From a virus (taxonomy: Duplodnaviria; Heunggongvirae; Uroviricota; Caudoviricetes): a stretch of DNA of 35,999 nucleotides. The stretch lies in IMG/VR virus record IMGVR_UViG_2541047899_000011, one strand, 5' to 3'. The notes beneath the pieces were generated by a model. The model did not search any database, was not told the origin of the DNA, and was given only the letters and a program-made list of their open reading frames with translations. Made by a program: the position numbers and the translations under genes. This document shows positions 1 to 11,071 of this stretch, one piece after another; the first letter of the stretch is position 1, and every line of letters starts with the position of its first letter.

Positions 1-237
1 ATGATGGTTAGAAATGAAGTAATGAACAAAGACTGGCACCGCGAGTACATCGTTGCCGCTGTGCACACCAAAGGTTTTACATTGCGTGAACTTTCTGAAC
101 GCGCTGGTCTAAAAAAAGACTCTTTAAAAAATGCACTGTATCGCTCATGCCCTAAATATGAACGCATCATAGCCGATGCTATTGGTGTGGAACCTGCGGA
201 GATCTGGCCAAGCCGGTATGCCAGTAAGGCGGCGTAA
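1..237 (+). CDS. ner: Ner-like DNA-binding transcriptional regulator
   Basis: 78 aa; DWHREYIVAAVHTKGFTLRELSERAGLKKDSL...EIWPSRY resembles Mu Ner/Nlp family; directly precedes transposase with TAATG stop-start overlap. Confidence 0.7.
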   Translation: MMVRNEVMNKDWHREYIVAAVHTKGFTLRELSERAGLKKDSLKNALYRSCPKYERIIADAIGVEPAEIWPSRYASKAA

Positions 238-2279
238 TGTTTTATTCAGCCAATGAGCTGGCCGGTCTTCCTGGTTTGCCCGGTACAGTTCAGGGGGTGC
301 GCTGGACGCTCAATCGGATCACAGAGACGCACCCGGAATGGAAGCGCAAGCGTGAAGGCACCAAAGCATTCGAGTATCACATCGACTGCCTGCCCACTGA
401 AGCGCAGAAAGTTTTACGTAAGCGCCTGACTCATCAGGTTCTGGAAGATGCGCAACTGCCCGCCGTGGTTGAGCAGAAGGCAGTTAAAAACGTCACCGTT
501 CGCGATGAACTGGAAGTGATGGTCAAATGCCCGGAGCTGGCATTACGCGAAGTCCAGGCACTGACCGACAAGCAAAAGGCCATCGCTGATGCGCGGATAT
601 TGCTGGCTACCGAAGTGCATAAACTGCGTGAATACGCTGGAATGTCCAGGACAGCAGCAGTAAAACACATCGTTGATGGTATTCGTCAGATGGCATTGCC
701 TGACCGCATTATTGAGGCCGCAGGCACTGCAAACGCCAGACAGGGTAAGCGAACTGGCGTCAGTTGGGGAAGTTTGCAGGAATGGTATTCCGCCTGGCTG
801 ATGGCGCGCGGTGATGCCAATCAGTTACTGGCGTTACTGGCTCCCGGTCATCATAAGGGGACACCGTGGGAGCAGGTCTGGTGGTTGAGCGATTTCTTTA
901 TGTTCTATCGCTCATGGAAGCGCCCGACCGTTGAATATGCGTATCGCGAGTTTTCAGCCTGGTGGCATGAAAAACACGCGAACGATGCGGGAATGCTGGC
1001 GGCACTGCCTTCAGTTCACGCAGTAAGGCGGGTGTTAAGCAGCGTCCCGGTGATTGTTAAGGAGCGTTTCCGCTCCACAGGTTCAGCCTGGCGTTCGCTC
1101 AATCCCTTTGTGCGGCGCGACTGGAGCACATTACCGGTTAATGCGGTATGGGTCGGGGATGGTCACTGTATGAAAATGACCGCGTTTAACCCACTGACCG
1201 GCAATATTTTCCGGCCAGAAGTGACGCTGGTTATGGATGCGGGGCAGCGCTTTGTTGTGGGCTGGTCACTGTCCCTGTCGGAGAACGTGATAGCTGTTGC
1301 TGATGCGTTGCGTTACGGCATGGCACAGCACGGGATACCGCTGATTTATTACTCCGATAACGGGGGCGGTGAAAAAAACCGGGTGCTTGATGCCGATATT
1401 ACCGGGATTCTGCCCCGGCTGGGTGTGGAACATCACACGGGGATACCAGGTAACCCGCAGGGGCGCGGGGTGATTGAACGGGCAAACAAAGGAATACCCA
1501 AAGACGTGGCTCTGAGTTTCCAGACGTACTGCGCAAGGGATGCAGACAGGGAAACCGTAATGATGCAGCAACGGATTATGCAGTCAGCCATTAAGGCCAC
1601 CCACAAAGGGAAAGAGCTGACAAAACGGCAGGTTAAGGCAAGGGATGAAGTCCCCACCTTTGAGCAACTGATGGCAGCCATAGAGCTGGAGGTCAGACGC
1701 TATAACAACCGGCCACACAGCAGCCTACCACGCAAAGAGGATGGCGAATATTACAGCCCGGCAGCGTATCGCCGGAAACTGATAAAAGAGCAGAATGTTG
1801 AAATTGATTTCCTGTCGCCGGAAGAACTGCATGAAATGTTCAGACCGGAAGTGACGCGCAAAACATTTCGCGGGGAAATTCAGTTATTCAACAATATTTA
1901 TTACTCGTATGAGCTGGCCGCAGAGCACGGGAATGAAGTCAGGGTCAGTTACGATATTCATGATGCAAACAGCGTCATTGTCCGGCGGGCTGATGGCTCT
2001 TATATCTGCGATGCCATCTGGAACGGTAACAAGGTTGATGCCTTCGCTAAACCAGTTATCGAACAAAAACTGGAGAAACGCGTCAGGGGCCGCATTGCAC
2101 GGGCCACGCAGAAAATCGAAGAGGCTAAACGCGAGCTTACCCCGGCTATTACGCAGAAGCCTGACTTTAATCTGGGATATGGACTGGAGCGCCCGGAGAA
2201 AAAGGAAAAAGAAGAACTTTATTTATTCGCATCTGAGCGCGAGCGCAATTTAAAGAAAAACGGCACAAACAACCGTTAA
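237..2279 (+). CDS. Mu-type DDE transposase (MuA-like)
   Basis: 680 aa; N-terminal ELAGLPGLP DNA-binding region; central integrase-like core with candidate D-D-E residues (WVGDGH, YYSDNGG, VIERANK); position after ner and before B. Confidence 0.9.
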   Translation: MFYSANELAGLPGLPGTVQGVRWTLNRITETHPEWKRKREGTKAFEYHIDCLPTEAQKVLRKRLTHQVLEDAQLPAVVEQKAVKNVTVRDELEVMVKCPELALREVQALTDKQKAIADARILLATEVHKLREYAGMSRTAAVKHIVDGIRQMALPDRIIEAAGTANARQGKRTGVSWGSLQEWYSAWLMARGDANQLLALLAPGHHKGTPWEQVWWLSDFFMFYRSWKRPTVEYAYREFSAWWHEKHANDAGMLAALPSVHAVRRVLSSVPVIVKERFRSTGSAWRSLNPFVRRDWSTLPVNAVWVGDGHCMKMTAFNPLTGNIFRPEVTLVMDAGQRFVVGWSLSLSENVIAVADALRYGMAQHGIPLIYYSDNGGGEKNRVLDADITGILPRLGVEHHTGIPGNPQGRGVIERANKGIPKDVALSFQTYCARDADRETVMMQQRIMQSAIKATHKGKELTKRQVKARDEVPTFEQLMAAIELEVRRYNNRPHSSLPRKEDGEYYSPAAYRRKLIKEQNVEIDFLSPEELHEMFRPEVTRKTFRGEIQLFNNIYYSYELAAEHGNEVRVSYDIHDANSVIVRRADGSYICDAIWNGNKVDAFAKPVIEQKLEKRVRGRIARATQKIEEAKRELTPAITQKPDFNLGYGLERPEKKEKEELYLFASERERNLKKNGTNNR

Positions 2280-2297
2280 TTTAAAAGGTATTTAATT

Positions 2298-3191
2298 ATG
2301 AGTTTAATTACGCAATTAAATGACGTAATGGCCCGTCGCGGCTATACGCAGACCCACGTCGCCCGTGCTATTGGTCGTAGCAGCGCCGTTATCAACCAGT
2401 ATTTACAGGGTAAATATCAGGGCGATATGGCTGATATTGAAGAACGCATTTCTGCCTTTGTGACCCGTGAGCGGGAAAAGGAAAACAGCCGCCGTATTAA
2501 AGCGAAATTTGTTGCCACCGGTATGGCTGCCAAAGGACTGGAAGTGCTGGCCTATGCTCACCTGGAATGTGAAATCTGCGTACTGTATGGCGCGGCAGGT
2601 CTTGGCAAAACAATGATTCTGCGTGAATACGCCGCCAGAAACCGGGATGCGGTCCTGATTGAGGCTGACCCGGGCTATACAGCCAGGACACTGCTTGAGG
2701 AGTTGTGCCGCCAGTTGGGGGTAAAAGTTCGCGGCAATATCCACGAACTGATTGATGCATGTGTGCGAGAACTGCGTGATTCCGGTCGCCTGCTGATGGT
2801 GGACGAGGCTGAACTGCTCCCCTATCGCGCACTGGAGGTTCTGCGCCGTCTACATGACAAAGCGGGTATCGGGATTGTCCTGGCGGGTATGCCACGCCTT
2901 CTGATTAACCTCAAGGGACGTCGCGGTGAGTTCGCCCAGTTATACAGCCGTGTGGCGCTGGCGCTTAACCTGGGCGATACGCTGGCGCAGGAAGATTTTA
3001 ACCAGATAGCCACCGGGCTGATGCCGGAAGCAGCAGAACCGGAAATCAGCGAGGCGCTTTATACACGTTCGCTGGGTAATGCCCGCCGCCTGTTCAAACT
3101 GGCGCGTGGTGTGTACCGGATTTGTGATATCAGCGATGCGCCGGTCAGTGTGCAGGCCATTGATAAATTCGCAGAAATGTTAATTCACTGA
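2298..3191 (+). CDS. Mu B-like AAA+ ATPase, transposition target-DNA activator
   Basis: 297 aa; N-terminal HTH-like region, Walker A GAAGLGKT, Walker B LLMVDEAE; immediately downstream of transposase. Confidence 0.85.
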   Translation: MSLITQLNDVMARRGYTQTHVARAIGRSSAVINQYLQGKYQGDMADIEERISAFVTREREKENSRRIKAKFVATGMAAKGLEVLAYAHLECEICVLYGAAGLGKTMILREYAARNRDAVLIEADPGYTARTLLEELCRQLGVKVRGNIHELIDACVRELRDSGRLLMVDEAELLPYRALEVLRRLHDKAGIGIVLAGMPRLLINLKGRRGEFAQLYSRVALALNLGDTLAQEDFNQIATGLMPEAAEPEISEALYTRSLGNARRLFKLARGVYRICDISDAPVSVQAIDKFAEMLIH

Positions 3192-3205
3192 TGGAGAATA
3201 AGACG

Positions 3206-3430
3206 ATGGACAAGCAGACCATTAACGCCGTCCGTTCCCGTGCCCGTGTGGCCATTCACACCACCGGCGGTCGTGTAACGGGACAGCATCACCGTTTACC
3301 TGTGGTTTATGCCTGCCCGCCCGTGGGTGGTCCTGTATGGCCGGTAACGGAAATCATCCAGACATTCAGCGGCCTGCGCCGCGTGGTGAAAACATCCTGT
3401 ATCGACGGCTGCACCGTCGTATGGCAGTAA
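3206..3430 (+). CDS. hypothetical early-region protein
   Basis: ORF with GGAG 9 nt upstream of ATG 3206; an alternative ATG at 3191 overlaps the B stop. Confidence 0.45.
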   Translation: MDKQTINAVRSRARVAIHTTGGRVTGQHHRLPVVYACPPVGGPVWPVTEIIQTFSGLRRVVKTSCIDGCTVVWQ

Positions 3431-3445
3431 AACGAGGAGCTGAAA

Positions 3446-3637
3446 ATGTCATTAGAGCTTGAATTAACTTTCAGCCTGGACAGGCCAGGTAAACCGGAGA
3501 AAACCGTCGTGACGTATCAGTTGCCGCCTGATGTCACGGGAGAGCAGATTTCCGACATTATCAGAAAAACTCACGGTTTTATGAACGAAATTATTTTCGA
3601 ATCGTTTGATATCAAAGGAGAAAAACATGGCGGTTAA
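3446..3637 (+). CDS. hypothetical early-region protein (63 aa)
   Basis: ATG preceded by GAGGAG; compact spacing in operon. Confidence 0.5.
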   Translation: MSLELELTFSLDRPGKPEKTVVTYQLPPDVTGEQISDIIRKTHGFMNEIIFESFDIKGEKHGG

Positions 3638-3842
3638 GTTAGAAGTAATTATCTATACCGATGAAAAAGGCTGTGTATTAACCCAGACCACGGGGAGTTA
3701 TTCGAAGGACGGAGCTTCCGAAAAAGAGTTTCAGATAGCAACAAGATTACATGATGCTATCAAGGAAACGCTTAGAAATGACTATAACGGCGTGAATCTT
3801 TTTTCTGAAAACGTTGCGCCTCGCGCACATAACACAAATTAA
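3627..3842 (+). CDS. hypothetical early-region protein (71 aa)
   Basis: ATG 3627 with AAGGAG 6 nt upstream; the ORF track begins at an upstream TTG (3606). Confidence 0.5.
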   Translation: MAVKLEVIIYTDEKGCVLTQTTGSYSKDGASEKEFQIATRLHDAIKETLRNDYNGVNLFSENVAPRAHNTN

Positions 3843-3871
3843 TCTGTAAATATCACTGAGGTAATTTAATT

Positions 3872-4516
3872 ATGACGACTGAAAATAAAGTTAAGCAATA
3901 CACGAAAACTCAAGCGCCAGAAGGTTACTGGGTGGATGCCCGTGGCGTAATGACACCTGAAAGCCTTATCAAAGATATTGACCGCGACCGCGAGCAGCTG
4001 GTCGGTGAGCTTGTGGAGATGGTGATTGCTGCCTCCGCCTCACTGCGTGAACTGAAACTGCGTGCGTTTGGTGATATTCAGGCATTTATTGACCTGTCGG
4101 CGGAGAAATACGGCGCTGTGAAAGGCGGCAAAAAAGGCAATATCACGCTTTACAGCTTTGACGGACGCTACAAGATTCAGCGCGCTATGCAGGACCGTAT
4201 CGCGTTTGATGAGCGCATCCAGACCGCGAAATCGCTGATTGATGACTGTCTGGCTGACTGGACGGAAGGTGCGCGCCCTGAAATTAAAGCCATCATTAGC
4301 GAGGCATTCAGCACGGACAAGGAAGGCAACATTAACACCGGGCGCGTTCTGGCCCTGCGTCGCCTGGAAATTGAGGACGAACGCTGGAATAACGCTATGA
4401 CGCTGATTGGTGAAGCCGTCCAGGTGATTGGCAGCAAGAGCTATATTCGTGTGTATGAGCGCGTCGGTGATTCTGATGAATACCGCGCAATCCCGCTTGA
4501 TATTGCAGGGGTTTAA
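3872..4516 (+). CDS. conserved Mu-like early protein (DUF3164-like, recalled from memory)
   Basis: 214 aa; YWVDARGVMTPESLIKDIDRDREQLV ... GGKKGNITLYSFDG resembles the DUF3164 family common in Mu-like prophages; not Gam-like by eye. Confidence 0.6.
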   Translation: MTTENKVKQYTKTQAPEGYWVDARGVMTPESLIKDIDRDREQLVGELVEMVIAASASLRELKLRAFGDIQAFIDLSAEKYGAVKGGKKGNITLYSFDGRYKIQRAMQDRIAFDERIQTAKSLIDDCLADWTEGARPEIKAIISEAFSTDKEGNINTGRVLALRRLEIEDERWNNAMTLIGEAVQVIGSKSYIRVYERVGDSDEYRAIPLDIAGV

Positions 4517-4517
4517 C

Positions 4518-4751
4518 ATGCATCAGGATATCAAAGAGTACAGGGCCGGAAATAGTTGCGCGGCGTATTCGCTGGGCGCGTCCAGAGCAGAACAACGCGG
4601 CGATTATGACGAGGCAGAAAAACTGTGGCGCAAGGCAGCGCAAAGCCCGTGTAGCACCCTGCGCCGCATCTGGGCTGAACATCGTGCGGAGTTCTGCGCT
4701 AACGCTCACCTGAAGGGCTGGAGGCCACGCCATGAATGCGAAGAACTTTAA
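4518..4751 (+). CDS. small helical protein (ANR-like family, tentative)
   Basis: 77 aa from ATG 4518; CAAYSLGASRAEQRGDYDEAEKLWRKAA repeat-like helix motif. Confidence 0.45.
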   Translation: MHQDIKEYRAGNSCAAYSLGASRAEQRGDYDEAEKLWRKAAQSPCSTLRRIWAEHRAEFCANAHLKGWRPRHECEEL

Positions 4752-4923
4752 TAAGCAGTATCCGGTAGGGACTCGCTTCATGCACACTGCACATCCGGCG
4801 TTGCGTGGTGGTCGTGTGGTGAAAACCGTTTCACCTGCCAGAGATTTTAAATGTGGTTGTGTGGTTGAAATTAATGTCGAGCCTTATTTCGTTAAAGTCG
4901 AAACACTGAAAGCAGCGCATTAA
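4732..4923 (+). CDS. hypothetical protein (63 aa)
   Basis: ATG with GGAGG upstream; overlaps previous gene end. Confidence 0.45.
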   Translation: MNAKNFNKQYPVGTRFMHTAHPALRGGRVVKTVSPARDFKCGCVVEINVEPYFVKVETLKAAH

Positions 4924-4952
4924 TTTAATTCAATTTTAATTGTTATTTAAAA

Positions 4953-4986
4953 CAGGCGTAAACCCGCCGGGGCTGGCTTACGCCTG
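4953..4986 (+). promoter_or_regulatory. leader hairpin upstream of gene 5004-5390
   Basis: CAGGCGTAA ... TTACGCCTG stem enclosing a GC-rich loop, preceded by a 40-nt AT-rich tract and followed by GGAG and ATG. Confidence 0.45.
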
Positions 4987-5003
4987 AATCTGGAGAAATG
5001 AAA

Positions 5004-5390
5004 ATGAGTGTTACCGTTATCAATGAAATGATTGGGCGTACATTTAAAGAAGTAGTTAAGAATGAAAACGATGAACTTGTTTTTCGTGGTGATTATTCCC
5101 GGGGAGTATGGGGAACCGTGTTTACATTTTTCCACTTTCAGGAAGGCTGCGAAAAAGTCTGGATTGAGGACATCGTCGGAGACCTTGACGACCTGAAAGA
5201 TGAACCGCTGACAGAGGCTGAAGTGGTTACCGAAGAATGTGATGTTGGGGAAGGTCATCAGACATGGAGTTTCTTTAAGTTCGGCACATCAAAAGGCTGT
5301 GTAGTCGTCAGATGGTGCGGTGAGAGCGAGGGCTTTTATTCTGAGTGCGTTTCACTGAAGCGGGAATTAACTGACGTCTTCGATTTTTAA
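5004..5390 (+). CDS. hypothetical acidic protein, moron-like accessory gene
   Basis: GGAG 8 nt upstream of ATG 5004 (alternative ATG 4998); appears AT-richer than neighbours by eye; flanked by related hairpin elements. Confidence 0.55.
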   Translation: MSVTVINEMIGRTFKEVVKNENDELVFRGDYSRGVWGTVFTFFHFQEGCEKVWIEDIVGDLDDLKDEPLTEAEVVTEECDVGEGHQTWSFFKFGTSKGCVVVRWCGESEGFYSECVSLKRELTDVFDF

Positions 5391-5410
5391 CTCTGACTTC
5401 GTTTTTTTAT

Positions 5411-5434
5411 GGCGCAGGTAAACAGGTCTGCGCC
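5411..5434 (+). promoter_or_regulatory. related leader hairpin upstream of gene 5454-6170
   Basis: GGCGCAG gtaaacaggt CTGCGCC; shares TAAAC...CGCCTGAAT..GAGAAAT with the 4953-4986 element. Confidence 0.45.
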
Positions 5435-5453
5435 TGAATAAGAGAAATTCATT

Positions 5454-6170
5454 ATGGAAAATAAAAGCAAATACATCGCCAAAATTAAAAAACTGTTACG
5501 CCTTGCCAGAGGAACATCAAGCCCGGAAGAAGCCGCTAACGCTATTGCAAAAGCCCAGGCTTATATGCGCCAGCATGGCATCAGCGAAAACGACGCGGAA
5601 TTGTTCGACATTCAGGAAGCTGCCAGCGCGGGTGCGCCGAGTGATGCCAGTACGCCGCCGCGTTATATGCACATCCTGTGTGACCTGGTATGTAAAGCCT
5701 TCGGTGTCGAGTGTTACATCTCCGGTGAGTACCGGGCTTCTGGTTCACTCAAACGTTACGTGCGTTTTTATGGTCCTGACAGCCGCCCGGAAATTGCGGC
5801 CTACGCGTTTGATGTGCTTTCCCGTCAGATGATGGCTGAACGCAAGAAATATCAGGATAAACACTGCAAACGTTGCGGCCCGTCCACGCGGGTGGCCCGT
5901 GGCGACCAGTTCTGCGAAGGCTGGGTCTTTGGTGCCCGTGATGTCATTGCGGTGTATGACGTCTCCCCGGAAGAAAAAAGCCGCCTTGAGCTTTACAGAA
6001 AGAACCTGCACAGCACTAAGGGGCTGCGCGACGGGGATATGCGCACAGCTAAAGCGTGTCGGGGTGCAGAGTTTGCCGCTACTGCCGGTTTTATCGCCGG
6101 GAAAAACGCCAGGCTGCATCAGGGGGTTAATGGTCAGAGCAACAGACCGCTGGCACTGGGGAGGGCGTAA
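5454..6170 (+). CDS. conserved Mu-like early protein (DUF2786-like N-terminus, recalled from memory)
   Basis: 238 aa; N-terminal KIKKLLRLARGTSSPEEAANAIAKAQAYM is typical of the DUF2786 family. Confidence 0.6.
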   Translation: MENKSKYIAKIKKLLRLARGTSSPEEAANAIAKAQAYMRQHGISENDAELFDIQEAASAGAPSDASTPPRYMHILCDLVCKAFGVECYISGEYRASGSLKRYVRFYGPDSRPEIAAYAFDVLSRQMMAERKKYQDKHCKRCGPSTRVARGDQFCEGWVFGARDVIAVYDVSPEEKSRLELYRKNLHSTKGLRDGDMRTAKACRGAEFAATAGFIAGKNARLHQGVNGQSNRPLALGRA

Positions 6171-6172
6171 CG

Positions 6173-6400
6173 ATGGCTTTTAAACTTCTCAGTGTTACCG
6201 AAGCAATATACCAGCCGCCCGGAGAACGCCACGAATACAGGATGAATGACGGCAGCGCGGCGGTTGAGTTCCCTAAATATCCGGGGGCTTCCCGGTGGCG
6301 GTTCTATGACAGTGCGGGACGCCGGATTATTAAAAGAACCGTGCACAACGCCATGAAAGCCGCTGTAGAACGTCACAAAAGAAGGTTTAACTGCAAATGA
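6173..6400 (+). CDS. hypothetical protein (75 aa)
   Basis: ORF tightly packed after previous gene. Confidence 0.4.
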   Translation: MAFKLLSVTEAIYQPPGERHEYRMNDGSAAVEFPKYPGASRWRFYDSAGRRIIKRTVHNAMKAAVERHKRRFNCK

Positions 6401-6621
6401 ATATTGAATTTTATGACTACGGAGTCACCGCAAAAATCATTGTTACCTGCTGGTTCTGGGAGTTCCGTCGCTATTGTCGGGTTGTGGATGCGGCGCTGTT
6501 TGTTGCTCCTGAAGTGCGCCACCAGAGTGGCGGTGGCCTTTTAATGAAAACCGTCATCACCGGTAAAACGGTTCCGATGTTACGGGCGTTTAAAGTGGCA
6601 AAACAGGAGGCGGCGCAGTGA
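6397..6621 (+). CDS. hypothetical protein (74 aa)
   Basis: Start overlaps previous stop; operon-like packing. Confidence 0.4.
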   Translation: MNIEFYDYGVTAKIIVTCWFWEFRRYCRVVDAALFVAPEVRHQSGGGLLMKTVITGKTVPMLRAFKVAKQEAAQ

Positions 6622-6806
6622 ACCAGCAAACCAGAATAAGCGATAAGAGCCTGACCAGACTGATTGCCGATGCGGACAAGGTGCTGGAGCGGAACACCCC
6701 CGTTGCCGATGAGGAATGGTGGCAGGATTTCCGGGCCGCAATGCTGGAACTTCAGGAGCGCCGCAGGGCTGACAGTGCAGAGTCAGTAGTAAATACAGGA
6801 GAATGA
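6618..6806 (+). CDS. hypothetical protein (62 aa)
   Basis: Start overlaps previous stop. Confidence 0.4.
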   Translation: MNQQTRISDKSLTRLIADADKVLERNTPVADEEWWQDFRAAMLELQERRRADSAESVVNTGE

Positions 6807-6810
6807 AACG

Positions 6811-6987
6811 ATGAAAAACCGTAAAGCAAAACGACTTCTTTTACAGCGACCTGTGCGTGTGGTGGAGCTGGTTATTAGCAACCATAAGATAGCGGTACTC
6901 CATCCATTTGGTCAGGTGGCTTTTGCCGCAAAGCGTAAGCCTACTGCGTCACAGAACAGGCGGAATAAAGGGTACGCAGTACGATGA
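6811..6987 (+). CDS. small basic protein, paralogue 1 (58 aa, MKNRKAK...)
   Basis: Not in the ORF track (below 60 aa); translated by hand: MKNRKAKRLLLQRPVRVVELVISNHKIAVLHPFGQVAFAAKRKPTASQNRRNKGYAVR. Confidence 0.4.
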   Translation: MKNRKAKRLLLQRPVRVVELVISNHKIAVLHPFGQVAFAAKRKPTASQNRRNKGYAVR

Positions 6988-7160
6988 AAAACCGTAAGGC
7001 AAAAATTCTGTTAGCTCGCAGAAACGGCTTTGATGTCTGGCGGTGGGTGAGGATTAGTAACAGACGGTTGAGGTTGACAGGGTTTTTAGGGGGTATGGGG
7101 CACAGTTGTTGCCAAAAGCCCAGCGCGGCGCAAAACCGCAGGAAAAATCACGGTATGTAA
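6984..7160 (+). CDS. small basic protein, paralogue 2 (58 aa, MKNRKAK...)
   Basis: ATGA stop-start overlap with paralogue 1; MKNRKAKILLARRNGFDVWRWVRISNRRLRLTGFLGGMGHSCCQKPSAAQNRRKNHGM; shares the N-terminus and a C-terminal QNRR motif with paralogue 1. Confidence 0.4.
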   Translation: MKNRKAKILLARRNGFDVWRWVRISNRRLRLTGFLGGMGHSCCQKPSAAQNRRKNHGM

Positions 7161-7172
7161 AGGAGGTACCAG

Positions 7173-7586
7173 GTGAAGAAAATGATTTTTGTGGCGGTAT
7201 TGCTGACAATTACCCAACAGGCGCAGGCCTCAGCAGTTATTGTGGCATCTGCCGCTGCGACCACGGCTGCTACCGCAGCTGCTGCGAACTCTGCGAATAT
7301 CGCAAATCAACAGGCACAGCGTGCTGCTAATGCATCAGCCAGTGCTCTCCCGATTTCTGTTAAGGGCAGTAAGCAAAATCTGGGGTTCATAACGTGCGGT
7401 AAGCGTTCTTCTGAAGCTGTAGGCTCACTGGGATGTACGGTATATGGCGATGGTGAGAGCAGAGAAATTCCATGGAAAACGTGGCCCGGATACGTTCTTG
7501 GCTCGAAGCTCCCGGTCAGTTATGAGGTAAACGCCGTGTCGTTTGACCACTATAACGGTGTGGCAACTGTCTATTTCACATACTGA
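7173..7586 (+). CDS. secreted protein with Ala/Thr-rich linker (signal peptide predicted by eye)
   Basis: GTG start 6 nt after AGGAGG; MKKMIFVAVLLTITQQAQA then a likely AQA cleavage site; mature part has 2 Cys and an aromatic C-terminus. Confidence 0.6.
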   Translation: MKKMIFVAVLLTITQQAQASAVIVASAAATTAATAAAANSANIANQQAQRAANASASALPISVKGSKQNLGFITCGKRSSEAVGSLGCTVYGDGESREIPWKTWPGYVLGSKLPVSYEVNAVSFDHYNGVATVYFTY

Positions 7587-7627
7587 GTCCCGGCATGAAA
7601 TTTTCTGAATCACGGAGTAACAACCTG

Positions 7628-7813
7628 ATGAAAACTATCACCGTAACGGTTGAAATCGACGTTCCTGATAACGCAACGGACAATGATATTGCTGATTTTG
7701 TCGATGTCGAGTATGGGGAGTGCGGAAAAATGGCACTTGATAACCCATGCCGGACAGATGGAACGGAAATACTCGATGCCAGATGGGAACACGGACCTGA
7801 TTACGCGGGGTGA
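7628..7813 (+). CDS. small acidic protein (61 aa)
   Basis: ATG 7628 with GGAG upstream (ORF track starts at 7595); appears AT-rich. Confidence 0.4.
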   Translation: MKTITVTVEIDVPDNATDNDIADFVDVEYGECGKMALDNPCRTDGTEILDARWEHGPDYAG

Positions 7814-7817
7814 AAAG

Positions 7818-8069
7818 ATGAGATGGGTTGACATTTTTATTATCGCTCTGATTGCTACGGGTATTGCGCTTTGTGTGACAACTAACAAGGCTTCTGATGA
7901 TGCGAAAAATGGGCATTGCGTGGTAAAGAGAAATTTCATCAAAACCATTACGCATTGTGATGATGGAAGTGCCACCATGACCGACGGAGATAAGTTTATT
8001 TATTGCTCTGCCGGGAAAGATGGCACGCCATCCTGCCATGAAGTGACGCTCAGTGATGGTGATAAATAA
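7818..8069 (+). CDS. membrane-anchored Cys-rich small protein (83 aa)
   Basis: ATG 7818; N-terminal hydrophobic segment WVDIFIIALIATGIALCV followed by a domain with 5 Cys; the ORF track's upstream start (7650) overlaps the previous gene. Confidence 0.5.
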   Translation: MRWVDIFIIALIATGIALCVTTNKASDDAKNGHCVVKRNFIKTITHCDDGSATMTDGDKFIYCSAGKDGTPSCHEVTLSDGDK

Positions 8070-8099
8070 TTCACCACATTGAGCAAATAACAATCAAGC

Positions 8100-8127
8100 G
8101 CAGACCAAAACATATGTTTTGGTCTGC
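8100..8127. repeat. perfect 28-bp palindrome GCAGACCAAAACATATGTTTTGGTCTGC
   Basis: Exact dyad symmetry centred on CATATG; a third copy of the half-site GTTTTGGTC at 8138-8146. Confidence 0.8.
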
Positions 8128-8149
8128 CAAAAGTAGTGTTTTGGTCATT

Positions 8150-8428
8150 ATGAAGATTGAACAAATCGGAATGGCAGCTTTCAGGCAACAGGCTGAAAGC
8201 GGTGGCGTGGATGAGTTCGTCGTGCAGCGGTTCGGTGGTGTGTATCACCTCTTTGCTGTGAATCGTCGCGCCGGGGTGTCCTATTTTCTACAGGAACGCC
8301 GTGGCGATTACAAGACGTGGCTGTCTCTTGACCGTGCCGCTGCGTTCCTGTCAGGGATTGGCGTTTCACGTTTTACCGTGCGTTTTGAGGATAACAAACA
8401 TGCTGAAAAAGATGATCGGAGCCATTAA
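8150..8428 (+). CDS. hypothetical protein (92 aa)
   Basis: ATG 8150 just downstream of the palindrome; an in-frame ATG at 8114 lies at the palindrome centre; no clear SD for either. Confidence 0.4.
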   Translation: MKIEQIGMAAFRQQAESGGVDEFVVQRFGGVYHLFAVNRRAGVSYFLQERRGDYKTWLSLDRAAAFLSGIGVSRFTVRFEDNKHAEKDDRSH

Positions 8429-8813
8429 AGCCGGTCAGGCGTATCTGGGGTGGGATGATGTCCTTTATCGCCAGACGCTGGCCCGCCTGACCGGTAAAAC
8501 CAGCACCACACGCTGCAACCTCGATGAACTGCGCATCATCCGGGAATACATGCACGAACAGGGATTTCCGCGTAAAGCCCCCGCCGGTAAAGGTCGCCGC
8601 CCCCGTGTGGCAATGAGCAGAAAATCGGTATTATCCAAAATTGAAGCGTTGCTGGCTGATGCCGGTCGTTCCTGGGCATATGCGGAAGGACTGGCATCTC
8701 ACATGTATAAGCAACATGTGATCGAATGGCTGACAGATGATCAACTGTTCGGGGTGATGGTGGCGCTGACAAAAGACGCCAGAAAACGAGCCAGAGCAGC
8801 ACGTAAACAATAA
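8400..8813 (+). CDS. gemA: GemA-like regulatory protein
   Basis: 137 aa from ATG 8400; LGWDDVLYRQTLARLTGKTSTTRCNLDELRIIREYMHEQGF and C-terminal WAYAEGLASHMYKQ resemble Mu GemA; located just before mor. Confidence 0.7.
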   Translation: MLKKMIGAIKAGQAYLGWDDVLYRQTLARLTGKTSTTRCNLDELRIIREYMHEQGFPRKAPAGKGRRPRVAMSRKSVLSKIEALLADAGRSWAYAEGLASHMYKQHVIEWLTDDQLFGVMVALTKDARKRARAARKQ

Positions 8814-8818
8814 AGAAT

Positions 8819-8846
8819 CAGCCCCTGCCTTGCAGGGGCTTTTTTG
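8819..8846 (+). terminator. intrinsic terminator after gemA
   Basis: 8-bp GC stem GCCCCTGC/GCAGGGGC (8821-8828 / 8832-8839) followed by TTTTTT (8840-8845). Confidence 0.7.
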
Positions 8847-8851
8847 TGGTC

Positions 8852-8879
8852 TGTACAGGCGATCATGTATGGCTATAAT
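8852..8879 (+). promoter_or_regulatory. candidate sigma70-like promoter upstream of mor
   Basis: TGTACA (8852-8857), 16-nt spacer, TATAAT (8874-8879); about 30 nt upstream of the mor start. Confidence 0.35.
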
Positions 8880-8908
8880 AACAGTAAGTTACTACCGGAG
8901 ACGCCATC

Positions 8909-9376
8909 ATGCAGACCTTCAGTGAAACAGATCTTCGCGATGCGCAGGCACTGCTGCCCGATTCCGTGCAGCAACTGATTAGCGTGATTGGCTTCCCCGC
9001 CCTGACCCGGTTGATTCGTTCTTTTGGTGGCGTGACGTTAAGCGGTAAAACCGGCGTACACGCCGGACGCACCGGCGGTGTCCATGCCCTGTTACATGAT
9101 GTGCTGACCGAAGACGAAATCAACAAACTGATCCGCTTTCTTGGCGGTGCACCGTTTTACATTCCCCGTTGTGATCATGCGTTACGTGCCCTGCGTAACA
9201 CCCGTTTTATGGCTGATTTACAGCAGCATGTAAAAGACGGATGCTCACACCGGCAGGCGCTGGCACTACTCTGTCCCCGTTACGGGATTTCAGACCGGTA
9301 TGCATGGCAACTGATACACCGACGACAAAAACAGACTTCGCTGAAAAGCCCCACCCAGGTGGGGCTTTTTGATTAA
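8909..9376 (+). CDS. mor: Mor/C-family transcriptional activator
   Basis: 155 aa; C-terminal region with GGAPFYIPR and an HTH-like segment typical of Mu Mor/C; follows gemA. Confidence 0.75.
   Translation: MQTFSETDLRDAQALLPDSVQQLISVIGFPALTRLIRSFGGVTLSGKTGVHAGRTGGVHALLHDVLTEDEINKLIRFLGGAPFYIPRCDHALRALRNTRFMADLQQHVKDGCSHRQALALLCPRYGISDRYAWQLIHRRQKQTSLKSPTQVGLFD
9346..9371 (+). terminator. intrinsic terminator-like hairpin overlapping the 3' end of mor
   Basis: Stem GCCCCAC/GTGGGGC (9348-9354 / 9359-9365) then TTTTT (9366-9370); lies inside the last codons of mor. Confidence 0.55.
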
Positions 9377-9402
9377 TGGGCCTCAGAAAAAAGGAGACAC
9401 TT

Positions 9403-9681
9403 ATGACCAACTATACGGCACTTGGCGAGTATACGGCCTACTCAGAGCAGGCCCGGGATGCTGCCGGACGCCGCTTCGCTTATATGAAAAATCTGGCCAG
9501 CCAGCTAAACCGAATGGCCGAACAACCGGATATGGTTGTTCAGGAAGAAGCGTTGCAGTGTGCTATTGCTGACATCATCGCCAGCGAAAACGAGATGCGC
9601 GCAGCGATGGAAAAGGCGAACGCCTCTGCTCCGCTTTGTAATAAACCTCTTATTACGCCGGATTCCCTTTCCCGCTTCTGA
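9403..9681 (+). CDS. hypothetical protein (92 aa)
   Basis: ATG 9403 with AAGGAG 6 nt upstream; no Mor/C-like motif. Confidence 0.45.
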   Translation: MTNYTALGEYTAYSEQARDAAGRRFAYMKNLASQLNRMAEQPDMVVQEEALQCAIADIIASENEMRAAMEKANASAPLCNKPLITPDSLSRF

Positions 9682-9700
9682 TTTATCACCCCGCCGCTGC

Positions 9701-9718
9701 GGGGTGCTGAACTCCCCC
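9701..9718 (+). promoter_or_regulatory. late-leader motif copy 1 (GGGGTGCTGAACTCCCCC), upstream of lysis genes
   Basis: Shares GTGCTGAAC-CCC with the copies at 17862 and 29813; overlaps hairpin 9687-9706. Confidence 0.4.
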
Positions 9719-9863
9719 AGCAGTACCCACCATACCAGACCGTTTACCCTGTCCACTCAGACCACAAGGCACCTTAAGGGATAGCGCCCTGCAAAAGGCT
9801 TTTGTGCCTTTGACAGGGTGTTATTTACGGGCCGTCAGTGGCTCAGATTTACAGGAGAAACTC

Positions 9864-10256
9864 ATGTCTGAACCCTTATCAGGCGGCGGAGCTGTGGCAG
9901 TCACCATCGGTGGTGCCAGTGTGTTTGGCCTTCTCACCAATACCGATTTCGGGGTTGTGGTGGGCGCGTTTGCCGGGGCGCTTTTTGTTGTCACGCAGCA
10001 GAAAGAAATCCCGGTCTGGCGAATGGCTATCCACCTGCTCGTCGCGTTTGTGGTTGGCGTTCTGGGGGCTGGCGTGGCTGCGTCACTGATGCAGTGGCTG
10101 ACCCACTACAACGACAAGCCGCTCGATGCATTGTGTGCGGTCGGTGTCTCTGCTTTATCCATCAAGATACTGACTTTTCTTTATCAACAGGAAATTTCAT
10201 CGCTGTTCAGCCTGTTTTCCAGACTGCGCGGCGGAGGGGGCGGAAATGGAAAGTAG
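9864..10256 (+). CDS. multi-pass membrane protein, holin candidate
   Basis: ATG with AGGAG upstream; 3-4 hydrophobic helices and a charged Gly-rich C-terminus; first gene of the lysis cassette. Confidence 0.5.
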   Translation: MSEPLSGGGAVAVTIGGASVFGLLTNTDFGVVVGAFAGALFVVTQQKEIPVWRMAIHLLVAFVVGVLGAGVAASLMQWLTHYNDKPLDALCAVGVSALSIKILTFLYQQEISSLFSLFSRLRGGGGGNGK

Positions 10257-10542
10257 CCTTGCCGGTATTGTGAACGTCTGGCTGTGTCTCGCCATTGTGC
10301 TGGGGTTGTTTATGTATCGCCGCCACGGCGCAGCGCATAAACCGATGATTACCTGGCTGGCGTACTGGCTGATGCTCGGTTACATCATCATCCCGTTCCG
10401 CTGGCTGTCCGGTACATACACGCACTCCAGCTGGCTGGTTGTGGCGCTGAATCTGGTTTTCTGTGCGCTTATCGTGTGGGCGCACGGGAATTTGTCAAAA
10501 ATCCTTTCGTTACTGAGGCATCCACATGAAATCAAAAGATAA
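10246..10542 (+). CDS. three-helix membrane protein, holin/antiholin candidate
   Basis: 98 aa with three hydrophobic segments; directly upstream of and overlapping the endolysin gene. Confidence 0.5.
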   Translation: MESSLAGIVNVWLCLAIVLGLFMYRRHGAAHKPMITWLAYWLMLGYIIIPFRWLSGTYTHSSWLVVALNLVFCALIVWAHGNLSKILSLLRHPHEIKR

Positions 10543-11071
10543 AATTTTTGATGAAGTCCTGGGCAAAGAAGGCGGTTACGTCAATCACCCGGATGATAAG
10601 GGCGGCCCGACCAAATGGGGCATTACGGAAAAAGTCGCCCGCGCCCACGGATACCGTGGCGATATGCGTGAGTTAACCCGCGAACAGGCGCTGGATATCC
10701 TTGAAGCCGATTACTGGTATGGCCCGCGATTTGACCAGGTCGCCGCATTATCCCCTGATATTGCCGCAGAGCTGTGTGATACCGGTGTGAATATGGGGCC
10801 AACCGTGGCGTCCAGAATGCTTCAGCGCTGGCTGAACGTTTTCAACCTGCGCGGCAGGCTGTACCCGGATATGGATACAGACGGACGCATCGGACCTCGC
10901 ACCATCAGTGCATTGCGCGCCTTCCTGAATAATCGCGGTCAGGACGGTGAGCGGGTGATGCTGACGGCCCTGAACTGCACGCAGGGTGACCGCTATCTGG
11001 AACTGGCAGAGAAACGCGAGGCTAACGAATCGTTTGTTTATGGCTGGCTGAAGGAGCGCGTGGCGGTATGA
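10526..11071 (+). CDS. endolysin, glycoside hydrolase 108-type with peptidoglycan-binding domain
   Basis: 181 aa; N-terminal EGGYVNHPDDKGGPTKWGIT motif characteristic of GH108 lysozymes; no N-terminal TM/SAR segment. Confidence 0.85.
   Translation: MKSKDKIFDEVLGKEGGYVNHPDDKGGPTKWGITEKVARAHGYRGDMRELTREQALDILEADYWYGPRFDQVAALSPDIAAELCDTGVNMGPTVASRMLQRWLNVFNLRGRLYPDMDTDGRIGPRTISALRAFLNNRGQDGERVMLTALNCTQGDRYLELAEKREANESFVYGWLKERVAV

What the first reader, a model, noticed from the sequence alone, without database searches (positions are those of the whole stretch)
7173..8069. Cassette of secreted and membrane-anchored small proteins in the early region
Three consecutive small genes that look AT-richer than the flanks encode a signal-peptide protein with an Ala/Thr-rich linker (7173-7586), a small acidic protein (7628-7813) and a signal-anchored Cys-rich protein (7818-8069). 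Envelope-targeted proteins in the early region of a transposable phage are candidates for superinfection exclusion, receptor masking or other host-surface modification. None matches a family I recognise, so this is the most likely place in the window for an undescribed function.
Basis: partly seen in the sequence, partly recalled or inferred. Interest (0 to 1): 0.55.

Follow-up and report, generated by a model that had tools for sequence, protein, structure and literature searches.

The report
Three independent small phage accessory genes
Three real but uncharacterised small genes sit in a variable slot of a Mu-like prophage's early operon; two encode proteins sent to the cell envelope, one of them with a confidently predicted fold unlike any solved structure, but they come and go independently and their function is still untested.

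Summary
Three + strand genes lie at the stated coordinates in the early region of a Mu-like prophage: g1 (7173-7586), g2 (7628-7813) and g3 (7818-8069).

- **g1** has a Sec signal peptide (AQA|S), an Ala-rich spacer and a 79-residue C-terminal domain with two invariant Cys.
- **g2** is a 61-residue acidic protein (pI 4.05) with no export signal.
- **g3** has an N-terminal membrane helix and a domain with four invariant Cys. Distant homologues carry cleavable signal peptides, so this domain is periplasmic.

Only g2 and g3 are AT-richer than the flanks.

They are not a functional cassette. Related prophages carry every tested combination except g2 alone, always in the same order.

- g1 is mostly found outside Mu-like phages, in P1-like phage-plasmids, between ead/Ea22-like genes, and in lytic phages.
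- g2 and g3 occur in only 9 of 5,426 complete E. coli genomes.

My best guess, at low confidence, is stand-alone periplasmic binders acting during lytic growth, for example entry exclusion that does not depend on the receptor. Interest is moderate.

The parts
7160..7166 (+). Shine-Dalgarno AAGGAGG for g1, 6 nt upstream of the GTG start
   Evidence: Read directly from the sequence. The GTG start is conserved in all related loci.
7173..7586 (+). g1: a 137-residue exported protein (phrog_8805; UniRef name 'Prophage exported protein')
   Evidence: dN/dS is 0.16-0.52. PGAP calls the same gene.
7173..7229 (+). g1 signal peptide (residues 1-19: MKK, then MIFVAVLLTIT, then QQAQA|S)
   Evidence: Hydropathy and the -3/-1 rule. 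AxA-type signal peptides are conserved in homologues that are only 43-49% identical in the C-terminal domain.
7230..7346 (+). g1 low-complexity spacer (residues 20-58; 19 Ala, 5 Ser, 4 Asn, 3 Thr, 3 Gln)
   Evidence: Length and composition vary among homologues, from about 13 to 45 residues, so it is a linker and not a ruler.
7347..7583 (+). g1 C-terminal domain (residues 59-137): four strands, a helix, then two strands. Cys75 and Cys88 are invariant, and the protein ends in ...ATVYFTY-COOH
7628..7813 (+). g2: a 61-residue acidic protein with no signal peptide (phrog_8773)
   Evidence: The conserved core is MKTIxVTVEIDVPD...DI.DFVDVEYG...LDNP.
7818..8069 (+). g3: an 83-residue membrane-anchored or secreted 4-Cys protein (phrog_8391)
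7833..7883 (+). g3 N-terminal hydrophobic helix (residues 6-22, IFIIALIATGIALCVTT). It has no canonical lipobox, because Leu is at position -1
   Evidence: and inspection of the sequence. The homologue in Klebsiella phage Snook has a cleavable signal peptide (AMA|AD) instead.
7884..8066 (+). g3 periplasmic domain with invariant Cys34, Cys47, Cys63 and Cys73. The neighbouring His residues are not conserved
   Evidence: Alignment A2.
8100..8146 (.). Two tandem palindromes (GCAGACCAAAACATATGTTTTGGTCTGC and CCAAAAGTAGTGTTTTGG) that mark the right border of the variable slot, just upstream of the conserved gene at 8150-8428
   Evidence: Seen in all five related loci where this upstream region could be retrieved (L006, L007, L010-L012), which differ in accessory content.

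Best explanation
**Shown**
- The interval holds three separate single-gene accessory modules. They sit in a hypervariable slot of the early operon of an enterobacterial Mu-like prophage, between the DUF2786 gene and the conserved gene at 8150-8428 followed by gemA and mor.
- Each module is gained or lost on its own.
- g1 is a Sec-exported periplasmic protein. It has a cleavable signal peptide, a variable low-complexity spacer and a compact 79-residue alpha/beta domain with two invariant Cys and an invariant aromatic C-terminus.
- g3 presents a roughly 60-residue, 4-Cys mini-domain to the periplasm from an N-terminal anchor.
- g2 has no export signal and is presumably a cytoplasmic acidic protein.

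**Inferred**
- The genes are transcribed with the early operon during lytic development.
- g1 and g3 each act alone as stoichiometric binders of a conserved enterobacterial envelope component, not of the carrier phage's own receptor.
- The most likely effect is to block a periplasmic step of entry by later-arriving phages, or otherwise to condition the envelope of the infected cell. This would work like T4 Sp/Imm or HK97 gp15 (comparison from general knowledge), without being related to them.
- g2's role is unrelated to the envelope and unknown.
For: - **Genes are real and conserved:**
- **Context is Mu-like:**
- **Independent presence or absence, with fixed order**:
  - g1+g2+g3 in the window, L001, L018/L019 (Salmonella), L022 and L024.
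  - g1+g2 in L006.
  - g1+g3 in L008, L017, L023 and L028.
  - g2+g3 in L085.
  - g3 alone in L020 and L086.
  - g1 alone in L007, L009, L012, L025-L027, L040 and L045.
  - None of the three in L010 and L011.
- **g1 export:** all divergent homologues keep an n-region, a hydrophobic core and an AxA signal. Two Cys are invariant.
- **g3 periplasmic:** four Cys are invariant while the His residues vary. Snook and YC1 homologues carry secretory leaders.
- **Use during lytic growth:**
  - A full-length g1 homologue (69% identity) is in the lytic phage Av-05, and remote ones are in ~45-kb phages.
  - g3 relatives are in lytic Klebsiella phages.
  - No + strand promoter-like site lies between 6000 and 8043.
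- **Not tied to a receptor type:** g1 is in Mu-like, P1-like, Ea22-region, Vequintavirinae and 45-kb phages, and never beside tail genes.
- **The g1 domain is a folded, constrained unit:** pLDDT 87.7. The C-terminal half is almost invariant at 43-49% overall identity.
Against: - There are no functional data of any kind.
- No similarity in sequence or fold to any known exclusion protein.
- Signal-peptide cleavage and g3 topology rest on sequence rules and homologues, not on a dedicated predictor or experiment.
- Expression timing is inferred by analogy with Mu. The promoter scan is a crude consensus match.
- g2 and g3 are so rare (9 of 5,426 E. coli genomes), and decay so readily (g2 remnants), that their benefit must be marginal or conditional.
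- The weak structural echo of DUF1471 stress proteins would point to host physiology, not exclusion.
Confidence: 0.35

Rival explanations
1. g1, and perhaps g3, changes host envelope physiology, for example stress tolerance, surface properties or biofilm. It would act like the small enterobacterial periplasmic DUF1471 proteins (BhsA/YcfR, McbA, YhcN), so it would be a fitness or lysogenic-conversion factor and not an anti-phage function.
For: - The architecture is the same: a signal peptide plus a small alpha/beta domain ending in a hydrophobic hairpin.
- Named homologues are confined to Enterobacteriaceae.
- hhalign picks the expected C-terminal hairpin register.
Against: - hhalign probability is 0.7%.
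- No PF07338 hit for any of 16 family members, even at E <= 10.
- The genes lie in an early lytic operon with no detectable promoter of their own.
- Homologues occur in lytic phages, where host fitness is irrelevant.
Confidence: 0.12
2. One or more of the genes are counter-defence or host-takeover factors. g2 would be an acidic cytoplasmic inhibitor, for example of a nuclease or a sensor. g1 and g3 would neutralise envelope-located defence or abortive-infection triggers.
For: - The genes sit among early genes in a variable accessory slot. From general knowledge, anti-defence genes typically cluster in such slots.
- g2 is small and very acidic (pI 4.05). It is scattered among unrelated phages: Pantoea G19, 111-116 kb E. 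coli phages (IME392, EP_H11) and an Stx1c phage.
- The genes are present in lytic phages as well.
Against: - No similarity to any known anti-defence family. PADLOC, Pfam and NCBIfam are all negative.
- Few envelope-located defences are known for g1 or g3 to target.
- There is no co-variation with host defence content, although this was not tested.
Confidence: 0.2
3. g3 and/or g1 regulate lysis timing as periplasmic antiholin-like or holin/endolysin-modulating factors, comparable to T4 RI.
For: - g3 has an N-terminal anchor plus a small periplasmic domain.
- The prophage's holin and GH108 endolysin lie about 1.8-3 kb downstream.
- The genes are expected to be expressed during lytic growth.
Against: - The genes are not adjacent to the lysis genes.
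- g1 occurs in phages with unrelated lysis cassettes.
- Closely related prophages with identical holin and endolysin modules lack g1 to g3 entirely (L010, L011).
- No similarity to RI or any antiholin.
Confidence: 0.06
4. The genes are selfish or near-neutral passengers of a recombination hotspot, with no significant function for phage or host.
For: - g2 and g3 are rare (9 of 5,426 genomes).
- g2 deletion remnants are seen in L007, L008 and L012.
- Closely related prophages do without all three genes.
Against: - g1 is under purifying selection (dN/dS 0.16-0.52).
- The C-terminal half of its domain is nearly invariant across 43-49% identical homologues, and the domain models as a confident fold.
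- Four Cys of g3 are invariant down to 30% identity.
- The genes are retained in streamlined lytic phage genomes.
Confidence: 0.12

Closest known systems
Phage T4 Sp (spackle) and Imm: early-expressed envelope proteins that block entry of superinfecting phage (from general knowledge)
   Same: Small, single-gene and phage-encoded. Targeted to the periplasm or inner membrane, made during lytic infection, and independent of the receptor used.
T5 Llp and the Cor proteins of phi80, N15 and T1: outer-membrane lipoproteins that mask FhuA (from general knowledge)
   Same: Small, disulfide-containing, beta-rich periplasm-facing proteins of about 60-80 residues encoded by phages. g3 has a similar size and Cys content.
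   Different: Neither g1 nor g3 has a canonical lipobox. g3 has IALC with Leu at -1, and g1 has no Cys near its leader. They are not linked to a receptor-binding protein gene, they are carried by phages with unrelated virions, and there is no sequence similarity.
HK97 gp15: a single-pass inner-membrane moron protein that blocks DNA entry (from general knowledge; reviewed in PMC3594210, which I did not read in full)
   Same: g3 has the same architecture, an N-terminal membrane helix followed by a small periplasmic domain, and is an accessory gene.
   Different: HK97 gp15 is a true moron with its own promoter and terminator and is expressed from the prophage. g3 lies inside the early operon with no promoter-like site. 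No sequence similarity.
DUF1471 / YdgH-BhsA-McbA family (PF07338): small enterobacterial periplasmic stress and biofilm proteins
   Different: The g1 domain has an extra disulfide-stapled three-strand insert and a different C-terminal motif (ATVYFxY against GTAxIYK). There is no HMM match, and profile-profile probability is 0.7%.
Phage Mu semi-essential early region (kil, gam, gp11-gp15, gemA)
   Same: Same genomic slot: small non-essential genes between the transposition genes and gemA/mor, transcribed with the early operon.
   Different: No homology between g1, g2 or g3 and any Mu early protein. The Mu proteins in this slot show no obvious signal peptide on inspection.

Membership tests
PHROG families phrog_8805 (g1), phrog_8773 (g2), phrog_8391 (g3), all of unknown function | Full-length HMM match | tested here: met
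   E-values 3.5e-80, 4.5e-47 and 5.6e-45, each covering the whole profile.
DUF1471 / YdgH-BhsA-McbA (PF07338) | Match to the Pfam HMM at or near the gathering score | tested here: not met
   No hit for g1 at E <= 1. No hit for any of 16 family members at E <= 10. Control DUF1471 sequences scored 1e-13 to 1e-20.
DUF1471 / YdgH-BhsA-McbA (PF07338) | Profile-profile similarity | tested here: not met
   hhalign probability 0.7%, with only 23 columns aligned.
DUF1471 / YdgH-BhsA-McbA (PF07338) | Shared fold (strand, helix, two strands; small periplasmic domain) | tested here: inconclusive
Cor / Llp superinfection-exclusion lipoproteins | Lipoprotein signal with lipobox [LVI][ASTVI][GAS]C | tested here: not met
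   g1 has no Cys in or near its leader. g3 has IALC with Leu at -1. Only one divergent g3 homologue (P0065, VFGAC) would fit.
Cor / Llp superinfection-exclusion lipoproteins | Sequence similarity to Llp or Cor, and linkage to the receptor-binding protein gene | tested here: not met
   tblastn against 50,697 phage records gives no hit in well-known model phages. The genes lie among early genes, not tail genes.
Cor / Llp, T4 Sp / Imm, HK97 gp15 (functional class: superinfection exclusion) | Expression reduces infection by other phages | not testable with these tools
   Needs plaque, adsorption and DNA-entry assays.
T4 Sp (spackle) | Similarity in sequence or fold to Sp | tested here: not met
Moron (independent transcription unit, as for HK97 gp15) | Own promoter and terminator flanking the gene | tested here: not met
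   No + strand promoter-like site between 6000 and 8043. On the + strand, no terminator-like site was reported between the one at 6518-6537 (far upstream of g1) and the one at 8234-8249 inside the next gene. This is a crude consensus scan.
Phage Mu early (semi-essential region) proteins | Sequence homology to Mu gp5-gp15 | tested here: not met
   tblastn of g1, g2 and g3 against Mu bases 1-11000 gives nothing better than E = 0.47. GemA, the positive control, is found at E = 0.001.
Known anti-phage defence proteins (PADLOC-DB) | HMM match | tested here: not met
   No meaningful hit. The best is E = 0.054, to a type I methyltransferase model.

The most novel reading that the evidence does not exclude
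g1 founds a new structural class of phage periplasmic effector. Its fold is absent from the PDB. Its invariant C-terminal strand (...ATVYFxY-COOH) resembles the aromatic C-terminal signal of outer-membrane porins. It could therefore dock by beta-augmentation or PDZ binding onto the outer-membrane protein assembly or quality-control machinery (BamA/BamD, DegS/DegP). That would reprogramme receptor display or envelope stress in the infected cell. This would explain why phages with unrelated virions, both temperate and lytic, all carry it.
Probability: 0.05. Interest if true: 0.8.

Novelty: new variant of a known kind. Interest (0 to 1): 0.38.

Why it matters
Small exported phage proteins are an under-explored source of tools that act on the Gram-negative envelope, such as entry blockers, receptor modulators and enzyme inhibitors.

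g1 is a clean target for follow-up:
- It is a single gene with a conserved signal peptide.
- Its 79-residue domain is confidently predicted and disulfide-stapled, with no structural relative.
- It has spread horizontally among Mu-like, P1-like and Ea22-region temperate phages and several lytic phages of Enterobacteriaceae.

If it blocks phage entry regardless of receptor, or targets an essential envelope machine, it would add a new family to a short list of characterised mechanisms.

The negative result also matters. The three genes should be studied separately and not as an operon-like system.

Tried and rejected
- **Curated libraries:** Pfam, NCBIfam and PADLOC scans of all three proteins and their neighbours gave nothing.
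- **PDB sequence searches:** single sequences and profiles gave nothing.
- **Full-length g1 model:** AlphaFold2 gave pLDDT 47 and was unusable. It was replaced by a domain-only model built on a more diverse alignment.
- **DUF1471 membership:** rejected.
- **Zinc-binding reading of g3** (HC...HC...C...CH): rejected, because the His residues are not conserved while the four Cys are.
- **Lipoprotein reading of g3:** rejected, because Leu is at -1.
- **Second transmembrane helix in g1:** rejected, because remote homologues have only 3-5 hydrophobic residues after the cleavage site.
- **BRCA2 hits of the g1 profile:** spurious, caused by the GFxTCGK motif resembling the BRC repeat.
- **Antisense ORFs across g2 and g3 as the real genes:** rejected.
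- **Hidden RNA gene:** no Rfam match in or near the three genes; the only matches in 5000-10000 are three weak sub-threshold ones at 9298-9399.
- **Literature:** searches found no paper on these proteins.

Full report
**What is there**

The window is a Mu-like transposable prophage. Pfam identifies the Mu transposase (237-2279), a MuB-like AAA ATPase (2298-3191), DUF3164, DUF7448, DUF2786/DUF7168 (5454-6170), GemA (8400-8813), Mor (8909-9376), a holin, a GH108 endolysin and the Mu portal.

- g1 (7173-7586, GTG start) is preceded by AAGGAGG.
- g2 starts at 7628, 10 nt after a GGAG.
- g3 starts at 7818, 4 nt after the g2 stop.

Several lines show they are real genes:
- RefSeq annotates the same three genes as hypothetical proteins in E. 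coli STEC313, which is 96% identical in DNA.
- Each protein matches a PHROG of unknown function over its full length.
- g1 evolves under purifying selection, with dN/dS 0.16-0.52.
- The long antisense ORFs over g2 and g3 match nothing.
- No Rfam family matches in or near the three genes.

The composition claim is only partly right. g3 (GC 0.433) and g2 (0.478) are AT-richer than the window (0.546). g1 (0.510) equals the early-region average of 0.512.

**The three proteins**

g1 (137 residues)
- It has a textbook Sec leader: MKK, then MIFVAVLLTIT, then QQAQA|S.
- A 39-residue spacer follows that is half alanine.
- The last 79 residues form the C-terminal domain.
- An exhaustive profile search of 1.84 billion cluster representatives found only 15 hits.
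- The genuine hits all share the same plan: an AxA-type signal peptide, a spacer of very variable length and composition, and the same domain, which in most of them ends the protein at ...AT(V/I)YFxY.
- Invariant positions include G-x-x-T-C-G, a second Cys, and the C-terminal Y-F-x-Y.
- The full-length model was poor, at pLDDT 47.
- The domain alone, with a more diverse 16-sequence alignment, gave pLDDT 87.7 and pTM 0.75. Its order is four strands, a helix, then two strands.

g2 (61 residues)
- It is very acidic (pI 4.05), has no hydrophobic segment, and has a conserved N-terminal two-thirds.

g3 (83 residues)
- It has a strongly hydrophobic N-terminal helix and a roughly 60-residue domain.
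- Four Cys in that domain are invariant down to 30% identity, while the adjacent His residues are not. This indicates disulfides and not a zinc site.
- Its distant relatives in Klebsiella phages Snook and YC1 begin with ordinary secretory leaders, which places the domain in the periplasm.
- It lacks a lipobox, because Leu is at -1.

**Not a cassette**

I mapped the slot between DUF2786 and gemA in related prophages from E. coli, Salmonella, metagenomes and IMG/VR. Every tested combination except g2 alone occurs, always in the order g1, g2, g3, then the conserved gene at 8150-8428.

| Content | Loci |
|---|---|
| g1+g2+g3 | window, L001, L018/L019, L022, L024 |
| g1+g2 | L006 |
| g1+g3 | L008, L017, L023, L028 |
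| g2+g3 | L085 |
| g3 alone | L020, L086 |
| g1 alone | L007, L009, L012, L025-L027, L040, L045 |
| none | L010, L011 |

- Internal-deletion remnants of g2 persist in L007, L008 and L012.
- Among 5,426 complete E. coli genomes, g1 is detectable in 64.
- g2 and/or g3 is detectable in only 9.
- The right border of the slot is a conserved pair of palindromes at 8100-8146.

**Where else the genes live**

- **g1:**
  - It is mainly not a Mu gene. Of 60 IMG/VR contigs carrying it, 49 lack gemA nearby, and about 35 place it between two ead/Ea22-like genes.
  - It is on 66 P1-like phage-plasmids of 85-110 kb.
  - A 69% identical full-length copy is in the lytic phage Av-05.
  - Remote copies lie between terS and terL in ~45-kb phages.
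  - Named hosts are all Enterobacteriaceae.
- **g2:** it turns up in a Pantoea phage, 111-116 kb E. coli phages and an Stx1c phage.
- **g3:** apart from Mu-like prophages, it has only distant relatives in lytic Klebsiella phages.
- None of the genes is ever next to tail or receptor-binding genes.

**Comparison with known families**

- Pfam, NCBIfam and PADLOC give nothing.
- PDB sequence searches give nothing.
- Phage Mu itself has no homologue. Its equivalent slot holds gp11-gp15.
- tblastn against 50,697 phage records finds only a handful of mostly little-studied phages, and no well-characterised model phage. There is therefore no sequence link to Sp, Imm, Llp, Cor, Sim or gp15.
- The g1 domain model has no significant structural neighbour:
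  - The best Foldseek/PDB E-value is 0.18.
  - The only hit in BFVD is its own family.
  - I tested this lead and it failed. No PF07338 hit appeared for any of 16 members, even at E <= 10.
  - hhalign probability was 0.7%.
  - It remains a faint resemblance and not membership.

**How it most likely works**

Shown:
- There are three autonomous modules.
- g1 and g3 are predicted to be exported, and g2 is not.
- g1 has a constrained, folded domain.

Inferred:
- No + strand promoter-like site precedes the genes, they lie inside the early operon, and homologues exist in strictly lytic phages. They are therefore probably made during lytic development and not in the lysogen.
- Carriers have unrelated virions and the genes are never linked to tail genes. 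Masking of the phage's own receptor, the Llp/Cor logic, is therefore unlikely.
- The most economical model is that g1 and g3 are stand-alone periplasmic binders of conserved envelope components.
- These would block a periplasmic step of later phage entry or condition the infected envelope. That works like T4 Sp/Imm or HK97 gp15 without being related to them.
- I give this about 0.35.

Rivals:
- Counter-defence or host takeover, especially for g2 (0.2).
- DUF1471-like host-physiology factor (0.12).
- Near-neutral passengers (0.12).
- Lysis-timing control (0.06).

**Verdict**

- The functional reading is plausible but untested, and the "cassette" framing is wrong.
- The families are catalogued but uncharacterised.
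- g1 is the most worthwhile target. It is rare, with 15 clusters at 50% identity in 1.84 billion, and is known only from phages and prophages. It moves between phage types and has a confidently predicted fold with no known relative.
- Interest is moderate. This is the kind of gene that fills phage accessory regions, and nothing here yet points to an unexpected mechanism.

Noticed in passing
window 6811-7160: A tandem pair of 58-residue, very basic ORFs (MKNRKAK...; phrog_1380) lies immediately left of g1. The DNA is 88-96% identical to segments of P1/RCS47, Stx2c-converting phages, TL-2011b/c and phiV10, so this is a highly promiscuous small module of unknown function. A related ORF also lies near the g1 homologue of lytic phage Av-05.
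   Followed up: partly
window 8100-8146: Two tandem palindromes (GCAGACCAAAACATATGTTTTGGTCTGC, then CCAAAAGTAGTGTTTTGG, in 22-nt register) lie directly upstream of the conserved gene at 8150-8428. They were seen in all five related loci where this upstream region could be retrieved (L006, L007, L010-L012), which differ in accessory content. They could be an operator, an RNA hairpin or a recombination boundary.
   Followed up: partly
window 8820-8840: A GC-rich 9-bp hairpin with T-runs on both strands lies between gemA and mor. It looks like a bidirectional intrinsic terminator inside what is a single early operon in Mu.
   Followed up: no
L007 ~2640-2700, L012 (equivalent position), L008 2596-2643: Internally deleted remnants of g2 persist in prophages that keep g1. 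This shows recent decay of g2 and not independent insertion.
   Followed up: yes
window 7230-7250 (g1 residues 20-26) and homologues P0080-P0087: The predicted mature N-terminus of nearly every g1 family member starts with 3-5 mostly beta-branched hydrophobic residues (AVIVA, VVIA, VVVA, VVITKP) right after the AxA site. This feature is conserved and unexplained.
   Followed up: no
window 7383-7406 (g1 motif GFITCGKR): The g1 domain profile draws multi-stretch hits to eukaryotic BRCA2 proteins, because GFxTCGK resembles the BRC repeat core. I judge these spurious for an exported protein.
   Followed up: yes
L016 5001-5330, L094 3528-3905, L095 4501-4860: Remote g1 homologues in ~45-kb phages sit in a run of small genes between the small terminase (GP3_package) and the large terminase. 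This is an unusual accessory slot.
   Followed up: no
L096 (JAFAFN010000164.1, 'Actinomycetes bacterium' MAG): This was the only hit for the g1 domain among 185,579 species-representative genomes. It is a 3.2-kb contig 88% identical to the coliphage gene, so it is probably mis-binned enterobacterial phage DNA.
   Followed up: no
window 8150-8428: A conserved 92-residue gene lies just upstream of gemA and is 97-100% identical across all related prophages. It matches phrog_7844 and has a weak sub-threshold hit to the ParC partition-associated family (E = 0.0038).
   Followed up: no
L022 (IMGVR_UViG_2531839665_000019): This 39.7-kb IMG/VR contig matches the window's g1, g2, the 8150-8428 gene and gemA at 99-100% protein identity (g3 at 95%). 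It is a very close relative of this prophage.
   Followed up: no
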